Part shown: piece after piece, positions 2,367 to 8,787 of the stretch
Position numbering within the stretch: the stretch's first letter is position 1
Layout: each line of letters starts with the position of its first letter
Source of the DNA: Escherichia coli
GTDB taxonomy: Bacteria > Pseudomonadota > Gammaproteobacteria > Enterobacterales > Enterobacteriaceae
Assembly: GCF_045037415.1 (NCBI RefSeq)
Contig: NZ_CP173439.1
Length of the DNA: 64,000 bases
Strand: one strand, 5' to 3'
Program-made: the position numbers and the translations under genes
The notes under the pieces: model-generated
The model's input: only the letters and a program-made list of their open reading frames with translations
Told to the model about the DNA's origin: nothing
The model's database searches: none

Positions 2367-2666
2367 GTGGAGCGGACAATCCAAATGGTGAATTACCGTC
2401 TTATATCACTGGCGCTGACAAACAGGGATATTGCGACAATTCACAGCAATATCGTGCAGGAATACAACACCCTTAAAGGGTATAGCTGGAAATGGCTGGG
2501 TGGGGTGTCAGTGGCTTTTCTGGTTATGTTCTGTGTGCTCGGATGGGGAATGAAAACAATACTCGACAGGAACTACAACGCCACAGCGGCGGTGTATCAG
2601 AAAGTTGTGACACTGGAAGATAAACTGGTGGAGAAACCTGTCACGGGGAAGAGCCGGAAAAACTGA
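2367..2666 (+). CDS. hypothetical small membrane protein
   Basis: 99-aa ORF with one hydrophobic segment (GGVSVAFLVMFCVLGWG); start uncertain, may overlap the IS end. Confidence 0.3.
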   Translation: MERTIQMVNYRLISLALTNRDIATIHSNIVQEYNTLKGYSWKWLGGVSVAFLVMFCVLGWGMKTILDRNYNATAAVYQKVVTLEDKLVEKPVTGKSRKN

Positions 2667-2731
2667 CGCGCTTCGCTTGTCCAACGCCTCACGACCCGCG
2701 AAAGAATTTCGCGAACCGTTCACTGTTTTTT

Positions 2732-2941
2732 TCAATATGATTCTGTCTGCTTTGGTCGATAAAGCAGACGATAGTATTCCAGCCTTCGTATATATAACGG
2801 TACGTGCTCATCAGTAAGAGCTGGCGGTATTGTGTTATCAGGGGGAAGTTTTTTCAGATACTCACGAAATGCCTGGCTTGATGCCATAAAATCTACAGCT
2901 GCATCGATAATATGTGGGATATTTTCATCTAATTTTGTCAT
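2732..2941 (-). CDS. hypothetical protein
   Basis: 69-aa ORF, convergent with 2367..2666; no recognised motif. Confidence 0.25.
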
Positions 2942-3450
2942 GATGATTGATCTGATATTATCACGGTTCGTGAATTATAGTATGTCACTATTATTTATGC
3001 TTTAGTGAACCAGAAAAAATCCCCCGTTGGTATAGGGGGATATGTAAGGAGAAATAACTTCGCAGGTGTTCTTGTTTGTATTATAACGTGAAAAGAATGC
3101 ACGCAACTTAATTAATCTGCCGTACTTCCTTTCAGTTTTCAAGATAAGGTTTATAATAAAACATGGAATGGAAGCAAGCTTTAAGGTTTCAGCTCTAAAA
3201 TTTTTAATATCTATTAACTAGCTAGTTGTTGTCCTTGTGAGCATGTTGTATATAAAAGCTAGGATAATATCCTGACCGGAGTATTCATATTCCTTATCCC
3301 CTCTGTGTTCTCAGAGGTTTTTTTCTGTATTTAATGATATGAGCTGGAATGCGATTCCGGCCCCCCCCGTTTACATAATTCTCCCTGACATACGGCACCG
3401 GAATCGCATTGATTTTGCATTGCTAATGTCTAACTGTGCTGGTGAATGTT

Positions 3451-3488
3451 GGGGGCAGTTTGGATATCGAAAATTATTGTACGTTAAG
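3451..3488 (+). repeat. 38-bp Tn3-family-type terminal inverted repeat (copy A)
   Basis: Starts GGGG, ends ACGTTAAG as in Tn3-family IRs; related copies at 5787, 13586, 27905. Confidence 0.75.
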
Positions 3489-3554
3489 GTTGTTTTTTGA
3501 CCTTGTCGGGGTCCGCCTGCGGGCAGTAGAGATCATATAAGGTATTCAATAACG

Positions 3555-3830
3555 TCATGATGCGGTTATCCCCGATACGGTAATATACCATTTTACCTGC
3601 CCGTCGGGTTCGACCAGCTTCAGGCGACGCATGACACCCAACTGCTGAGACAGGGTCGGCTGAGTGATACCGACCGCCGCTTCCAGCTCGGTCACATTCG
3701 CTTCCCCCTGGCTTAACTGACACATCAACAATAGCCGGTCGCTGTTGGCCAGTCCCCGTAGGACATCTGCTGCCCCCAGGGCTGCATTTTTCATATCAGT
3801 CTGACGTTTTGTGTCTTCATTCATGGGCAT
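3555..3830 (-). CDS. ArsR/SmtB-family transcriptional regulator (BigR/YgaV-like)
   Basis: Winged-HTH region LLLMCQLSQGEANVTELEAAVGITQPTLSQQLGVMRRLKLV; divergent from the CoADR-rhodanese gene; start codon uncertain. Confidence 0.7.
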   Translation of the reverse strand: MPMNEDTKRQTDMKNAALGAADVLRGLANSDRLLLMCQLSQGEANVTELEAAVGITQPTLSQQLGVMRRLKLVEPDGQVKWYITVSGITAS

Positions 3831-3990
3831 TGCTGGTTTCTTATATTATGTATTTTTATATAATATTGTTCAGTATAATGATAGTGGCGTAATTTTGCCA
3901 CCGTGATCTTCAGGTCTGCAGCGTCCAGCTGGACCGGGTAACTAATTATATATGGCAGATATTTTGCCCCGAGTGAACAGAGAGGATGTA

Positions 3991-5649
3991 ATGAAAATAG
4001 TGATTGTTGGTGGTGTTGCCGGGGGAGCATCCGCTGCAGCCAGGGCTCGTCGGTTATCAGAGGATGTCAGTATTGTTGTGTTTGAGCGGGGAAGCGATGT
4101 CTCTTTCGCCAACTGTGGATTGCCTTATCATATAGGCGGAAAAATTCCGTTACGGCAGTCGCTGATTCTGAAAACCCCGGAGGATTTTAAATCCCGTTTT
4201 AACATAGACGTCCGTATCCGTCATGAAGTGATGTCAGTAGACCCGGTTAATAAGATGGTGACGGTTAAAAATCTGACCTCCGGGGAGGTCTATACCGAAG
4301 AATGGGATCGTCTGCTCCTCAGTACCGGTGCCGCTCCGGTTGTTCCCCCCTTGCCCGGACTACAGGAAGCGGGTGTCTTTACACTGCGAAATCTTACTGA
4401 CATGGATGCTATCCAGGCGTGGATTGAGCAACATAATATCGCTCACACCACGCTTGTCGGGGGGGGATTTATCGGGCTCGAAGTGATGGAGGCACTGAGC
4501 GAAAGGGGGATCAGTGTGACCCTGCTGGAGATGGGGGAACAGGTTATGGCTCCGGTTGATCCTGAAATGGCATCGGCCCTGCATCAGGAAATCAGGAGTC
4601 ATGGCGTGGATCTGCGTCTCAGAACGGCGCTCACCGAGGTACTGCGGACAGAGACGGGATTCCGCGTTGCACTGTCTGACGGTGGGTTTCTGCAGACCGA
4701 CATGGTTATTCTCGCCATCGGGGTAAAACCTGAGAGCAGCCTTGCCACAGGAGCCGGGCTCGCCGTGGGTAAACGGGGAGGCATAAGTGTCAATGCCTGT
4801 ATGCAGACAAGTATCCCTGACATCTATGCCGTGGGGGATGCAGTTGAAACACCTGACCTTGTCTTTCAGGAACCCGCTAATGTTCCTCTGGCAGGGCCAG
4901 CCAACCGCCAGGGACGCATTGCTGCTGATAATATGCTCGATCGTCACAGCCTTTACCATGGCAGTCAGGGGACATCCATTTGTAAGGTATTTTCGCTGAG
5001 TATTGGCAGTGTCGGGGCGAATGAAAAGCAGCTGAAAGCCCATGGTACCCGATACGAGAAGGTTTACGTCCATGCCGCTGATCATGCCAGTTACTACCCG
5101 GGGGCAACAATGATCAGTCTGAAACTGCTGTTCAGCCCCGATACCGGTAAAATTCTCGGGGCCCAGGCGTCAGGGAAAAAAGGGGTTGATAAACGCATCG
5201 ATGTCCTGGCTGTCGTACAGCGCGCGGGGCTTACCGTTAACGATCTCGAGCATCTGGAGCTGACCTATGCTCCGCCTTTCAACAGTGCAAGGGACGTCGT
5301 TAACCAGGCTGGAATGGTGGCGGCAAATGTTATCAAGGGTGATACGGTCATCTGTCATGTCCGCGATGTGTTACAACGGGAACCGGGCAGTTATTGTTTA
5401 CTTGATATTCGTTCTCCTGCAGAACTGAAACAATTTGGTGAATATCCTGACGCGCTATCCATCCCTCTTGATTCCCTGCGGGAGAATCTTGATAAGTTGC
5501 CTGAAGATAAAGAGATTATTATCGGGTGTCAGAGTGGTCTGCGGGGGCATGTGGCATACCGTATGCTTCAGTCTCACGGCTTCCGGACATATAATCTGAG
5601 TGGTGGTTTTATAACTTGGCAGGCGGTTACGGAATCAATGAGTCAATAA
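3991..5649 (+). CDS. CoA-disulfide reductase-like flavoprotein with C-terminal rhodanese domain
   Basis: N-terminal FAD motif IVGGVAGGASAA, redox Cys in SFANCGLPY, second Rossmann fold GGGFIGLE, C-terminal rhodanese with active-site Cys in IGCQSGLRG; AGAGG RBS before ATG 3991. Confidence 0.8.
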   Translation: MKIVIVGGVAGGASAAARARRLSEDVSIVVFERGSDVSFANCGLPYHIGGKIPLRQSLILKTPEDFKSRFNIDVRIRHEVMSVDPVNKMVTVKNLTSGEVYTEEWDRLLLSTGAAPVVPPLPGLQEAGVFTLRNLTDMDAIQAWIEQHNIAHTTLVGGGFIGLEVMEALSERGISVTLLEMGEQVMAPVDPEMASALHQEIRSHGVDLRLRTALTEVLRTETGFRVALSDGGFLQTDMVILAIGVKPESSLATGAGLAVGKRGGISVNACMQTSIPDIYAVGDAVETPDLVFQEPANVPLAGPANRQGRIAADNMLDRHSLYHGSQGTSICKVFSLSIGSVGANEKQLKAHGTRYEKVYVHAADHASYYPGATMISLKLLFSPDTGKILGAQASGKKGVDKRIDVLAVVQRAGLTVNDLEHLELTYAPPFNSARDVVNQAGMVAANVIKGDTVICHVRDVLQREPGSYCLLDIRSPAELKQFGEYPDALSIPLDSLRENLDKLPEDKEIIIGCQSGLRGHVAYRMLQSHGFRTYNLSGGFITWQAVTESMSQ

Positions 5650-5786
5650 GAGATGAGGTGCCATACACATGGCACCTCATCTTCCAGATTCATTGAAAAC
5701 GTATTATATGGAATAGAAATCTACAAAAATAATTAACACCCTGGATGGTACCCTATTGCGATAATGTGGACTGTTCAAAAAACAGG

Positions 5787-5824
5787 CTTACCGTACAATA
5801 ATTCTCTATATCCAAACTGACCCC
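5787..5824 (-). repeat. 38-bp Tn3-family-type inverted repeat (copy D, inverted partner of A)
   Basis: Reverse complement GGGGTCAGTTTGGATATAGAGAATTATTGTACGGTAAG. Confidence 0.75.
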
Positions 5825-6880
5825 AATGTTCCTGAATGTAAATCTCCGTACAAAGATATCGTTGAGTTTTATATAATTCATTGTTTTTATTGTGTTTTGT
5901 TTTTTTTGGTTGTGCTGGTTTGTAGTTATAAAAAACCCCTGGGAATCCAGGGGTAGGTAAGGAAAACAAATGATACTCAGTTAGTGTTGCACTTTAAACG
6001 GGTTGAAGTATAACTCGTATTAAATGAGATGTTGAAAATAAGTGAAAACCATTGCTGGTTGCAATAGGGCAGTATGCGTAAAAAATAAATTTGTGATGCT
6101 TTTCAAAAAAACAATTAATACATGAATATTACAGCTCATATATTACAGTTTATAAAAAACTGTGTTTTATCTATTACATAGAGAAAAATTCTTATCCTGA
6201 GCTGTGAACTTGGTTGTTTCGTTTGATATATATCTTTGTAAATGTGGTTTATTATGCGGGCATTTTTTATTGAGTATTGAATCAGAATAAGTGATGCAGC
6301 TAAATTTATTTGCGTAACTATTTCATTGTCAATATTCTGACTCAATCTGACACCTATCGTTTCTCTTGGATTCCCCACTTTTGTGGTTTTTTATCCGGAA
6401 CGGGATAGTGCCAGTTGTTTTTTATCAGCCTCAGGGTATTTTGGGGCGGTTGCGAACATTGACGCATTCCACAACTAAAAAAAATTTCTCACAGACTCTG
6501 ATTCTTGCCCCGACCCTTGGTCGGTTTTTTTTTGTCCTGGCGAAACGTGAAGCTCTGAAACAGGAAACCCCGTCAGAGCGCCACGCACCAGGGGAGAAAA
6601 CTTGTCGTTTTGAGCCGTTCGGTGTTCAGAACGCACGAAACCGATCGCACATCGCTTTCGTGCATAGTTATGCAACGCCCTGAAAACGATTCTGACGCGT
6701 TTTTCTGGTTTGGCCTGGTGTTTTCTTGTCTTTTTGCGTTTTTTGCGCCAGAAAGCGATTGAGGGCGTTTTACATGGTACGTACAACGGGAGTTATGGTA
6801 AATGGATCGGGTTTTCGGGAAGGTTCGACAGGATTTGCCGTTGGGTGTAGTGTAAGCGACTGAAAAACAAACGCCCCTGA

Positions 6881-7579
6881 AATCATGTCCAGATCCGGCA
6901 GAACCAGCCTCATGCGCAGTTCTGGCTGGTTTTTGACGTTGATCGCGAGGGGGCAGCGATTGACTGGAGCGACCGGAACGCTCCCGCGCCGAACATCACC
7001 GTAAAAAATCCTGTGAACGGTCATGCTCACCTGCTCTACGCGCTCAATATCGCCGTGAGAACCGCGCCGGACAGCTCGGTTAAGGCGCTGAAATACGCCG
7101 CTGCGATTGAACGTTCGCTGTGTGAGAAACTTTGTGCTGATGTGAACTACAGCGGACTGATTTGTAAAAATCCGTTCCACCTGGAATGGCAGGTGATGGA
7201 GTGGCGAGAGGAAGCCTATACCCTCGATGAACTGGCTGATTATCTCGATTTGAGCGCCTCAGCGCGCCGTAGCATCGATAAACATTACGGGATGGGGCGA
7301 AACTGCCACCTGTTCGAAATGACGCGCAAATGGGCTTACAGGGCGATTCGTCAGGGCTGGCCCGAATTCTCACAGTGGCTTGATGCCGTGATTCAGCGTG
7401 TCGAAATGTACAACGCATCGCTTTCCGTTCCGCTTTCACCGCCTGAATGTCGGGCTATTGGCAAGAGCATTGCGAAATACACGCACAGGAACTTCACGCC
7501 GGAAACTTTCGCACAGTATGTGGCTGATACGCACACATTAACGTACGTTTTCGTTCCATTGGCCCTCACCCCCCGATAA
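6881..7579 (+). pseudogene. ColE2-type (primase-like) Rep initiator homolog with no recognisable N-terminus
   Basis: Frame is open from 6881 with no ATG until a GTG at 7013; motifs FWLVFDVD, KNPVNGHAHLLYAL, NPFH, GMGRNCHLF recalled as Rep/primase-like; preceded by about 1 kb of AT-rich non-coding DNA. Confidence 0.4.
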
Positions 7580-7747
7580 CGACCCAGGTAGCGCGCCGTA
7601 TTCCCCCCGCCGGCCGTTTTCTTCGACATGTACATCAGGCGCGGAACTCATCGGGGCGCGGGAATGAAATCCCATTCAGACTCCGGATAGATTCAAGCAA
7701 GCCCACTTATCGTCAAAATCGGTGTTGCAAAAACGGGAGTGACCATA

Positions 7748-7770
7748 GATCCGTTTTCCAAGCGGACCCC
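7748..7770 (-). repeat. Partial Tn3-family IR (outer 23 bp) matching the IR of the miniature element at 63603
   Basis: Reverse complement GGGGTCCGCTTGGAAAACGGATC equals the first 22-23 bp of the IR at 63603-63640. Confidence 0.6.
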
Positions 7771-7816
7771 ATAATATCGGCTGGTAAACATCACTCGCTA
7801 GTGCATTCTTTTTGTT

Positions 7817-7835
7817 GGTAATGATAATCATTTAC
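7817..7835. promoter_or_regulatory. Fur box upstream of chaN-like operon
   Basis: GGTAATGATAATCATTTAC resembles Fur consensus GATAATGATAATCATTATC. Confidence 0.6.
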
Positions 7836-7911
7836 ATTCATTCTTTGATGTTTTATCATAATTAATGTTTTGTCAATAAATATATGGAAACATATTGTTT
7901 CAGATGGGAAT

Positions 7912-8787
7912 ATGAGAAAGTTCATCCTTATTTCTATGATAACGTTAGCTAGTGTTAGTCTGGGAGCCTGCAGACAGAATGTCACCATAAAGCAGGATGC
8001 GCCAGGGCAGAAAGCTTTCCTGACTGACGGGCAGATTTACGATTTGCACAGTGGCAAAATTATTTCTAGCAGCGAGCTTTTGGCGGATCTTGCTACCGCT
8101 CAACATCTTATTATTGGTGAAAAACACGATAATGCCGAGCATCATCAGATTGAGCTTTGGCTTATTCAAAATTTGCTCATCCAGCGACCACAGGGGAGTG
8201 TGTTGCTTGAGATGTTGACGTCAGAGCAACAGCCCCGAGTTAACCAAGTTAAATGTTGGCTGAAAGATAATCCTGTGGTTCGAGATAGCCGTGTTCAGGA
8301 ACTACTTAACTGGCAAAAAGGGTGGTCCTGGGAGATGTATGGCGACATCGTCATGCAGCTATTACGTGGGCCTTACCCGCTGCTCAATGCCAACATTGGC
8401 CGGGAGCAGATATTGGCACTGTACAAAAAAAACGAATTTCCTAAAGGAAAAAAATCCACTGCACCTGTGGTACAAGAAGCTCTGCGTGAAACCATCATAT
8501 CTATGCATGAAGGCAACCTTGAAAGCCAGCAACTGACGTCAATGCTCTCTATTCAGCAGCAGCGGGATCGCTACATGGCCCGCCAGCTTCTGAGTGCCCC
8601 GGTACCGTCGTTGTTGATTGCAGGTGGTTATCACGCGTCAAAAAGCATGGGCGTACCGTTACACATGGAAGATCTTGCCACCGGCACCCATCCAGTGGTG
8701 TTGATGCTTGCAGAAAAAGGAATGAACATCACAGTAGATCATGCTGACTACGTGTGGTTTGTAGCGCCAGATACAACAAAAAGGTAA
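7912..8787 (+). CDS. ChaN-family (heme/iron-associated) lipoprotein
   Basis: Lipoprotein signal LASVSLGAC; GEKHD...EHH motif region typical of the ChaN family. Confidence 0.55.
   Translation: MRKFILISMITLASVSLGACRQNVTIKQDAPGQKAFLTDGQIYDLHSGKIISSSELLADLATAQHLIIGEKHDNAEHHQIELWLIQNLLIQRPQGSVLLEMLTSEQQPRVNQVKCWLKDNPVVRDSRVQELLNWQKGWSWEMYGDIVMQLLRGPYPLLNANIGREQILALYKKNEFPKGKKSTAPVVQEALRETIISMHEGNLESQQLTSMLSIQQQRDRYMARQLLSAPVPSLLIAGGYHASKSMGVPLHMEDLATGTHPVVLMLAEKGMNITVDHADYVWFVAPDTTKR

What the first reader, a model, noticed from the sequence alone, without database searches (positions are those of the whole stretch)
7748..7770. Orphan 23-bp outer IR fragment of the miniature-element type between the Rep-like gene and chaN
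The reverse complement of 7748-7770 is identical to the outer 22-23 bp of the IR at 63603. That is a footprint of the same transposon family at a second site, right at the boundary between the Rep-like remnant and the Fur-regulated uptake operon.
Basis: seen in the sequence. Interest (0 to 1): 0.4.

Follow-up and report, generated by a model that had tools for sequence, protein, structure and literature searches.

The report
IS-split transposon end, a dead relic
The 22-base match is real, but it is the outer half of a Tn3-family transposon end that was split by a known end-targeting insertion sequence (IS4321/IS5075 type) and then mostly deleted, leaving an ordinary inert scar upstream of the cjrABC-senB iron-uptake genes.

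Summary
Observation confirmed. rc(7749-7770) equals 63603-63624 exactly over 22 nt; the 23rd base differs; none is expected by chance.

Interpretation partly right. The fragment is not isolated and does not sit at the Rep boundary. It adjoins 117 nt (7633-7749) that are the 3' end of an IS4321/IS5075-type insertion sequence (IS1111 family). These ISs are known to insert into the 38-bp inverted repeats (IRs) of Tn21-type transposons, between IR positions 21 and 22, in one orientation. That explains why only the outer 20-21 nt of the IR survive.

The rest of the IS, the inner IR half and the transposon are deleted. The IS stub is joined to a 60-nt internal IS91-family transposase fragment (7575-7634). 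A gamma-delta-like IR (7537-7574) and a Col156-type rep remnant lie further left.

The 20-mer is not specific to the miniature element. In 87 instances from other Enterobacterales, about 75 continue as complete IRs, some next to a Tn3 transposase. Eight are IS-interrupted in the same way, and one of those is a relative of the miniature element. The owner of this IR therefore cannot be identified.

The same scar occurs in E. coli and Shigella boydii cjr plasmids. It is a known kind of relic with low interest.

The parts
7751..7770 (-). Outer 20 nt of a Tn3-family (Tn21-type) terminal inverted repeat, GGGGTCCGCTTGGAAAACGG. The tip is at 7770 and the former transposon interior lay toward lower coordinates. 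T7750 is either repeat position 21 or the last base of the IS.
   Evidence: The sequence is identical to the tip of complete 38-bp inverted repeats in 80 stretches from other genomes. In L027 this repeat directly precedes a Tn3-family transposase.
7633..7749 (+). 3' terminal remnant of an IS4321/IS5075-type insertion sequence (IS1111 family), about the last 117 of 1327 nt. It is the distal part of the non-coding region downstream of the transposase gene, and includes the subterminal inverted repeat GGGAGTGACCAT (7735-7746) and the terminal tail AGA(T).
   Evidence: 91-95% identity to annotated IS5075 and IS4321 copies; the right-end junction has the same form as in intact copies; the left breakpoint is at 7633/7634.
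7575..7634 (-). 60-nt internal fragment of an IS91-family transposase gene, joined to the IS stub with a 2-nt (CA) overlap.
   Evidence: (H107, 98% identity, inside a 402-aa IS91-family transposase CDS). The fragment is longer (72 codons) in the Shigella boydii plasmid L008.
7537..7574 (-). Complete 38-bp gamma-delta/Tn1000-like inverted repeat, GGGGGGTGAGGGCCAATGGAACGAAAACGTACGTTAAT. Its tip at 7574 abuts the IS91 fragment and its inner end is fused to the truncated rep gene.
   Evidence: It is absent from the Shigella boydii plasmid, whose homology with the window starts at 7575. The likeness to Tn1000 is recalled from memory, not tested.
6446..7536 (+). Remnant of a Col156-type small-plasmid replication region: a Replicase/PriCT_1 rep gene truncated at its 3' end at 7536 and carrying an internal deletion.
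   Evidence: PF03090, PF08708; 94-95% identity to the 5.2-kb plasmid pAVS0972-C.
7771..7775 (.). ATAAT, the 5 bp just outside the repeat tip. It would be one copy of the 5-bp target duplication if the original transposon insertion was simple.
   Evidence: No partner ATAAT+GGGG was found in the window.
7817..7859 (+). Fur-box-like site (7817-7835) overlapping a sigma-70-like promoter (TTTACA-17-TATCAT, 7831-7859) for cjrA. It lies 47-90 bp outside the repeat tip and is not part of the relic.
63603..63886 (+). 284-bp miniature element whose left inverted repeat shares the 22 nt. Left repeat GGGGTCCGCTTGGAAAACGGATTTTCCCACGTCAAG, right repeat GGGGGCCGCTTGGAATTCGGAAAATAAACCACGTTAAG.
   Evidence: It recurs as a discrete unit in other plasmids.

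Best explanation
7750-7770 is the outer half of a 38-bp terminal inverted repeat (IR) of a Tn3-family, Tn21-type transposon or miniature derivative. That element once sat immediately upstream of cjrA, with its tip at 7770 and its body to the left.

An insertion sequence of the IS4321/IS5075 group (IS1111 family) then inserted into that IR. This group uses a DEDD transposase and, by analogy with the IS1111-family members tested experimentally (IS4321/IS5075 were not), a seekRNA made from its 3' non-coding region. Insertion is at a fixed position (between IR bases 21 and 22) and in a fixed orientation.

A later deletion or illegitimate recombination, with a 2-nt CA overlap, removed the first ~1210 nt of the IS, the inner IR half and the whole transposon. 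It fused the last 117 nt of the IS to the middle of an IS91-family transposase gene.

Later still, in the E. coli IncF lineage only, a gamma-delta-like IR carrying Col156 small-plasmid DNA cut the IS91 fragment at 7574/7575.

The relic has no transposase, no IS left end, no seekRNA guide segments and no intact target. It is therefore inert and is carried along passively with the cjrABC-senB module.

Shown: the anatomy, the junction positions, the homologies and the conservation of the scar. Inferred: the order of events and the inertness.
For: - Exact 20-22-nt IR match, with none expected by chance.
- 7630-7770 matches the 3' ends of annotated IS5075 and IS4321 copies at 91-95% identity.
- Intact copies read ...CTTAGCGTGCTTTATTT|AATGAGATGGTCACTCCC...GGGAGTGACCATAGAT|TCCGTTTTCTGAGACGACCCC. 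The two flanks reassemble into a 38-bp IR. From memory (not checked with a tool) this is the canonical Tn21 IR. The IS therefore sits between IR positions 21 and 22.
- The window shows the same right junction.
- IS4321 is found in an IR with the identical outer 21 nt in pN62675, and that IR is uninterrupted in two other plasmids.
- Eight of 87 independent instances of the 20-mer in other genomes are interrupted at the same position and in the same orientation.
- The literature states that IS4321 and IS5075 (1327 bp) target the terminal IRs of Tn21-like transposons (PMC8269217; PMC5001619). It also places the seekRNA in the 3' non-coding region of IS1111-family elements (PMC11187229).
- Breakpoints were mapped base by base.
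- The same scar is present in a Shigella boydii plasmid, in an IS26-flanked fragment and in the other E. coli cjr plasmids inspected.
Against: - The junction has one T fewer (ATAGAT|CCG) than reference IS4321/IS5075 junctions (ATAGAT|TCCG). The same short form occurs in Hafnia psychrotolerans, so this may be an isoform feature rather than damage.
- The remnant is only 91-95% identical to any full-length IS retrieved, so its exact parent IS is not identified.
- The order of events is inferred from two lineages only.
- The original description of the insertion point (Partridge and Hall 2003) could not be read. The position was re-derived here from sequences.
Confidence: 0.9

Rival explanations
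1. The inverted repeat belonged specifically to a copy of the 284-bp miniature element family seen at 63603-63886. That copy was hit by the IS and then truncated. This is a sub-hypothesis about the owner of the repeat and is compatible with the IS-split model.
For: There is a 22-nt identity with that element's left inverted repeat. The miniature family is common in IncF plasmids. A 74-75% related ~287-bp element in Rouxiella silvae carries an IS4321-like insertion at the same position in its repeat.
Against: Beyond position 22 the sequence is IS, not miniature element. The 20-mer is shared by complete 38-bp repeats of many elements. Only 1 of 87 surveyed instances has the miniature element's left-repeat continuation, and about 75 have the AAAATATCC-type continuation, some next to a Tn3 transposase. 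The miniature element's left repeat reads GGAAAA|TCCG at the insertion point, whereas intact targets read ATTT|TCCG. The window's own type of left repeat may therefore be a poorer target.
Confidence: 0.25
2. The 21-mer is not a transposon end at all. It would be a chance inverted-repeat-like pseudo-target in the cjr upstream DNA, like the ureC or yfeC-like chromosomal sites that IS5075 also uses.
For: IS5075 does insert into non-transposon look-alike sites (PMC8269217; chromosomal copy L003).
Against: Pseudo-targets share only about 12-13 nt around the insertion point. L003 reads TCCGTTTTCCAGCC and then diverges. Here all 20 nt out to the GGGG tip are identical to real transposon repeats, and the homology stops exactly at the tip.
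Confidence: 0.03
3. The fragment is conserved because it is functional, for example a regulatory site or a promoter element for cjrABC supplied by the outward-facing TTGCAA at the IS right end.
For: TTGCAA (7725-7730) is a -35-like hexamer at the IS right end. With the IS left end it would form TTGCAA-17-GATAAT in a circular junction (sequence inspection). The scar is conserved in all cjr plasmids inspected.
Against: In the window the hexamer 17 nt downstream is GATCCG, which is not a -10, and the promoter scan found nothing there. The predicted cjrA promoter and Fur box lie at 7817-7859. The conservation equals that of the surrounding DNA (98-100%), as expected from recent common descent.
Confidence: 0.02

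Closest known systems
[quoted passage not shown]
   Same: The 3' terminal sequence is the same: subterminal repeat GGGAGTGACCAT plus the AGA(T) tail. The insertion point in the inverted repeat (between positions 21 and 22) and the orientation are also the same.
   Different: Only the last ~117 nt survive. There is no transposase, no left end and no guide region. Identity to reference copies is 91-95%, and the junction has one T fewer. The target repeat is the GGGGTCCGCTTGG variant rather than Tn21's GGGGTCGTCTCAG.
Tn3-family transposons of Enterobacterales with the repeat GGGGTCCGCTTGGAAAACGGAAAATATCC(T/C)ACGCTAAG, for example the Pantoea sp. IMH element with a 994-aa TnpA and a serine resolvase (L027)
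   Same: The outer 20 nt of the repeat are identical.
   Different: The inner 17-18 nt and the whole body are missing in the window, so membership of any particular transposon cannot be established.
The 284-bp miniature Tn3-derived element at 63603-63886 and its relatives (comparable to TIMEs/MITEs of the Tn3 family; this comparison is from memory)
   Same: It shares the 20-22 nt repeat tip. A relative in Rouxiella is IS-interrupted in the same way.
   Different: No interior homology is left to compare. This element's left repeat is a 36-nt variant with a different inner half.
ureC::IS5075 and yfeC-like::IS5075 chromosomal insertions (PMC8269217; L003)
   Same: The same IS group and the same junction chemistry are involved.
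   Different: Those are look-alike pseudo-targets that share about 13 nt. Here the flank is a real transposon tip.

Membership tests
Tn3-family (Tn21-type) 38-bp terminal inverted repeat | Starts with a GGGG tip and matches repeats that directly flank a Tn3-family transposase gene. | tested here: met
   The 20 nt are identical to the tip of complete repeats in 80 genome stretches. In L027 the repeat is followed by a 994-aa protein that matches NF033527 (Tn3 family transposase) at 1213 bits, and by a serine recombinase.
Tn3-family (Tn21-type) 38-bp terminal inverted repeat | Full ~38-bp length ending in ACG(C/T)TAAG. | tested here: not met
   Only positions 1-20 (or 21) are present. From 7749 leftward the sequence is IS. 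It is therefore half a repeat, not a functional end.
Tn3-family (Tn21-type) 38-bp terminal inverted repeat | An inverted partner repeat and a 5-bp target-site duplication. | tested here: not met
   No ATAAT+GGGG partner exists in the window. The other repeats found belong to other pairs or types. About 29 kb of the plasmid lies outside the window and was not searched.
IS4321/IS5075 group (IS1111 family) | Characteristic right end: 3' non-coding region, subterminal repeat GGGAGTGACCAT and a short terminal tail. | tested here: met
   Alignment to annotated IS5075 and IS4321 copies. The right-end strings are identical.
IS4321/IS5075 group (IS1111 family) | Site- and orientation-specific location in a Tn21-type inverted repeat. 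| tested here: met
   The junction lies at repeat position 20/21-22, the same as in L007, L010, L002 and L004 and in 8 further loci, all in one orientation.
IS4321/IS5075 group (IS1111 family) | DEDD transposase gene and the left end (AATGAGATGGTCACTCCC). | tested here: not met
   No left-end match in the window with up to 2 mismatches. Homology to the IS begins only at 7630-7633. This is a remnant, not an element.
IS4321/IS5075 group (IS1111 family) | seekRNA guide segments that match both strands of the target. | tested here: not met
   By inspection, the candidate segments in IS4321 are AAAACGGAAA (L007 2462-2471) and ATATTTTC (L007 2488-2495). Both lie upstream of the truncation point at L007 2504. 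The assignment of these segments is my inference from PMC11187229, not an experimental result.
284-bp miniature element (63603-63886) | Homology beyond the shared repeat tip, in the inner repeat half and the interior. | tested here: not met
   The sequences diverge after 22 nt. The informative part has been deleted, so membership cannot be decided.

The most novel reading that the evidence does not exclude
The scar may be a single, ancient, shared-derived marker of how cjrABC-senB became mobile. On this reading every known cjr plasmid descends from one event, in which DNA next to an IS-disabled Tn3-family transposon end was captured. The module is bracketed by transposon tips on both sides (7770 and 13519). 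The residual IS end plus half-target might still bind IS4321/IS5075 transposase as a decoy.
Probability: 0.05. Interest if true: 0.35.

Novelty: already known. Interest (0 to 1): 0.12.

Why it matters
This is mainly an annotation correction. None of the annotated plasmid records inspected here lists a feature on this stretch. It is in fact a stack of four mobile-element relics. The "orphan" inverted repeat is explained by a well-known, site-specific insertion sequence that disables Tn21-type transposon ends.

The relic gives a precise, shared breakpoint marker for tracing the descent of the cjrABC-senB virulence module between Shigella and E. coli IncF plasmids. It also shows that IS4321/IS5075-type elements use the GGGGTCCGCTTGG repeat variant that is widespread in environmental Enterobacterales. 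It opens no new biological question.

Tried and rejected
- Rfam scan of 7300-8000 at E<=1 found nothing.
- A search for the IS left end in the window found none, so there is no full copy and no detached 5' part.
- A search for a target-duplication partner (ATAAT+GGGG) found none.
- A search for the missing part of the IS91 fragment, or a second gamma-delta-like inverted repeat, found none in the window.
- I looked for an empty-site or alternative left junction among plasmids carrying the cjrA upstream DNA. All 542 records begin at the first base after the repeat tip. The one short hit (H270) turned out to be the same scar trapped between IS26 copies.
- I considered that the repeats at 3451 and 7770 might be the two ends of one 4.3-kb transposon. 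This was rejected: 3451-3488 pairs with 5787-5824 and has its own duplication, and the Col156 plasmid homology is colinear across that insertion.
- I considered that CCGTTTTC at about 7610 might be a divergent seekRNA guide of the remnant. This was rejected because that stretch is 98% identical to an IS91-family transposase gene.
- A Tn3-family tnpA C-terminal remnant in the S. boydii plasmid (L008 4303-4698) has no inverted repeat after it and does not identify the parent transposon.
- Partridge and Hall 2003 is not held.
- No held paper links cjrA or senB with IS5075 or IS4321.

Full report
**Check of the observation**

The 20-mer GGGGTCCGCTTGGAAAACGG occurs exactly twice in the window, at 7751-7770 on the minus strand and at 63603-63622 on the plus strand. 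A third copy with 3 mismatches lies at 63867-63886. None of 100 shuffles gave a match. Reading both sites extends the identity to 22 nt, and the 23rd base differs.

**Replicon context**

The window is part of an E. coli IncF plasmid that carries cjrABC-senB (ChaN-family lipoprotein, TonB, TonB-dependent receptor, SenB/TieB). It is 99.8% identical to CP077244 and shares this region with several hundred plasmids.

The partner site at 63603-63886 is a 284-bp miniature element with Tn21-like inverted repeats (IRs). It recurs as a discrete unit in other plasmids at 94%, 91% and 78% identity.

**What adjoins the fragment**

A search of E. coli genomes with 6400-8000 split the region into blocks with different relatives. 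The block from about 7630 to 7770 matches thousands of sites at 91-96% identity. In annotated records these sites lie just downstream of "IS110-like element IS5075 family" or "IS4321 family" transposase genes.

The alignment and local BLAST show that the window carries the last ~117 nt of such an IS. This is the distal part of its 3' non-coding region, ending ...GGGAGTGACCATAGAT.

Intact copies have these junctions:
- Left flank: ...CTTAGCGTGCTTTATTT | AATGAGATGGTCACTCCC...
- Right flank: ...GGGAGTGACCATAGAT | TCCGTTTTCTGAGACGACCCC

In pSIM-1-BJ01 the two flanks reassemble into a 38-bp IR, GGGGTCGTCTCAGAAAACGGA|AAATAAAGCACGCTAAG. I recognise this from memory as the canonical Tn21 IR. The IS spans 1327 nt, the length published for IS4321 and IS5075. 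It therefore sits between IR positions 21 and 22, with a one-T ambiguity that the literature also notes.

This is the known behaviour of the group. IS4321 and IS5075 transpose into the terminal IRs of Tn21-like Tn3-family transposons (PMC8269217; PMC5001619). Target choice in experimentally tested IS1111-family elements is set by a seekRNA from the 3' non-coding region (PMC11187229).

The window shows the same right junction, with the IR variant CCGTTTTCCAAGCGGACCCC. The fragment is therefore the outer half of an IR split by this IS.

Only 20 nt (7751-7770) are certainly IR. T7750 is either IR position 21 or the last base of the IS. The 22nd matching base is IS sequence that matches the miniature element by chance.

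The window and its close relatives have one T fewer at the junction than the reference copies. The same short form occurs in Hafnia psychrotolerans.

**Is this IR variant a real target, and whose IR is it?**

In pN62675, IS4321 sits in an IR whose outer 21 nt are identical to the window's. The reassembled IR, GGGGTCCGCTTGGAAAACGGAAAATATCCCACGCTAAG, is found uninterrupted in two other plasmids.

A scan of one genome per species returned 80 stretches and 87 instances of the 20-mer. They come mostly from Photorhabdus, Xenorhabdus, Pantoea, Erwinia, Rahnella, Brenneria, Symbiopectobacterium and related genera.
- About 75 instances continue as a complete 38-bp IR. The commonest continuation is AAAATATCCTACGCTAAG (36 instances).
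- Eight are interrupted at the same position by the same IS end, all in one orientation.
- One has the miniature element's left-IR continuation. It is a contig with the window's own flank, filed under a Lachnospiraceae MAG.

In Pantoea sp. IMH the IR is followed directly by a 994-aa Tn3-family transposase (NF033527, 1213 bits) and a serine recombinase. The tip is therefore generic to a widespread group of Tn3-family elements and not diagnostic of the miniature element.

Conversely, a ~287-bp relative of the miniature element in Rouxiella silvae (74-75% identity) has an IS4321-like insertion at the same IR position. A miniature-element origin therefore cannot be excluded. Everything that could decide the question has been deleted.

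**The rest of the scar**

Base-by-base comparison gives these blocks:
- Col156-type rep homology (Replicase plus PriCT_1 domains) ends at 7536.
- 7537-7574 is a complete gamma-delta-like 38-bp IR. Its tip is at 7574 and its inner end is fused to rep.
- 7575-7634 is an internal piece of an IS91-family transposase gene (98% to H107).
- The IS4321-like stub starts at 7633, with a 2-nt CA overlap.

The Shigella boydii plasmid CP026733 shares everything from 7575 rightward at 99.2% identity. It has a longer IS91 fragment and lacks both the gamma-delta-like IR and the rep remnant.

I infer two things from this. The IS91 / IS-stub / half-IR / cjrA arrangement is the older state. The gamma-delta-like IR and Col156 DNA arrived later, in the E. 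coli IncF lineage.

All 542 plasmids with the cjrA upstream DNA begin at the first base outside the IR tip. The one odd hit is the same scar trapped between IS26 copies. No empty site was found.

**Function**

The relic lacks all of the following:
- a transposase gene;
- an IS left end;
- the likely seekRNA guide segments. By inspection these are AAAACGGAAA and ATATTTTC at L007 2462-2471 and 2488-2495, upstream of the truncation point; this is my inference;
- an intact target.

No Rfam family matches the region. The outward-facing TTGCAA at the IS end has no usable -10 after it, and the promoter scan places the cjrA promoter and Fur box at 7817-7859, outside the relic. The IR tip points toward cjrA, so cjrABC-senB is outside DNA for that transposon.

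I conclude that this is an inert scar, conserved by descent.

**Comparison with known systems and verdict**

This is a textbook case of an IS4321/IS5075-type element in a Tn21-type IR, followed by truncation. It is a remnant, not a member, of either family. The defining right end and the site specificity are met. The transposase gene, the IS left end and the full IR are absent.

The "footprint of a transposon" idea is right in outline. The terms "orphan", "miniature-element type" and "at the Rep boundary" are not supported as stated.

Novelty: already known kind. Interest: low.

Noticed in passing
window 3451-5824: A 2374-bp non-autonomous unit bounded by Tn3-family inverted repeats, 3451-3488 (+) GGGGGCAGTTTGGATATCGAAAATTATTGTACGTTAAG and 5787-5824 (-). 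It carries an ArsR/SmtB regulator gene and a 565-aa FAD-dependent oxidoreductase. It is flanked by AATGTT on both sides, consistent with a 5-bp target duplication, and is inserted in the Col156 plasmid remnant. A 93% relative of the cargo lies next to IS4321 in K. pneumoniae pSIM-1-BJ01.
   Followed up: partly
window 2421-7536: A Col156-type 5.2-kb mobilisable plasmid is embedded in the IncF plasmid as colinear pieces: 2421-3416, 5869-6012, 6359-6395 and 6446-7536. About 180 bp are deleted at the start of rep.
   Followed up: partly
window 7537-7574: A complete gamma-delta-like 38-bp inverted repeat is joined by its inner end to the truncated rep gene and by its tip to an IS91 fragment. This is the reverse of a simple insertion. 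It may be a relic of one-ended transposition or cointegrate formation. No second copy exists in the window.
   Followed up: partly
window 13519-13623: Just after senB lies a Tn3/Tn2-type inverted repeat, GAGGGCTGACGCTCAGTGGAACGAAAACTCACGTTAAG (13519-13556). About 30 bp later lies another repeat-like sequence, GGGGTGAGTTTGGATATGGAAATTATTGTACTATAAG, which resembles the 3451 repeat. cjrABC-senB is thus bracketed by transposon tips on both sides.
   Followed up: no
window 63542-63560 and 59115-59133: Fur-box-like sites with 2-3 mismatches to the consensus. One lies about 40 bp upstream of the miniature element's left end.
   Followed up: no
loci L013, L014 (hits H37-H43): A truncated copy of the miniature element (its first ~205 bp, 93.7% identity) is fixed in the backbone upstream of parM in many IncF plasmids of Klebsiella and E. 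coli. A separate ~109-bp piece of its right part recurs near coordinate 3167 of many IncF plasmids.
   Followed up: partly
locus L044 (Rouxiella silvae NZ_MRWD01000080.1): A ~287-bp relative of the miniature element has its inverted repeat interrupted by an IS4321/IS5075-like IS that is about 80 nt shorter than 1327 nt.
   Followed up: partly
loci L015-L026 (Photorhabdus cinerea): The 20-mer lies about 108-127 nt from many contig ends. This suggests a high-copy Tn3-family element or miniature derivative that breaks the assembly.
   Followed up: no
locus L030 (CAAGKF010000237.1, 'Lachnospiraceae' MAG): A 1.9-kb contig carries the miniature element with the same left flank (ccctataa) as the window. 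It is probably an E. coli plasmid contig mis-binned into a Firmicutes MAG.
   Followed up: no
locus L058 8832-8972 (Hafnia psychrotolerans): An IS4321-like right end is joined to the repeat GGGGGCCGCCTGGAAAACGG by the same one-T-shorter junction as in the window. This suggests an isoform-specific terminus rather than a deletion.
   Followed up: partly
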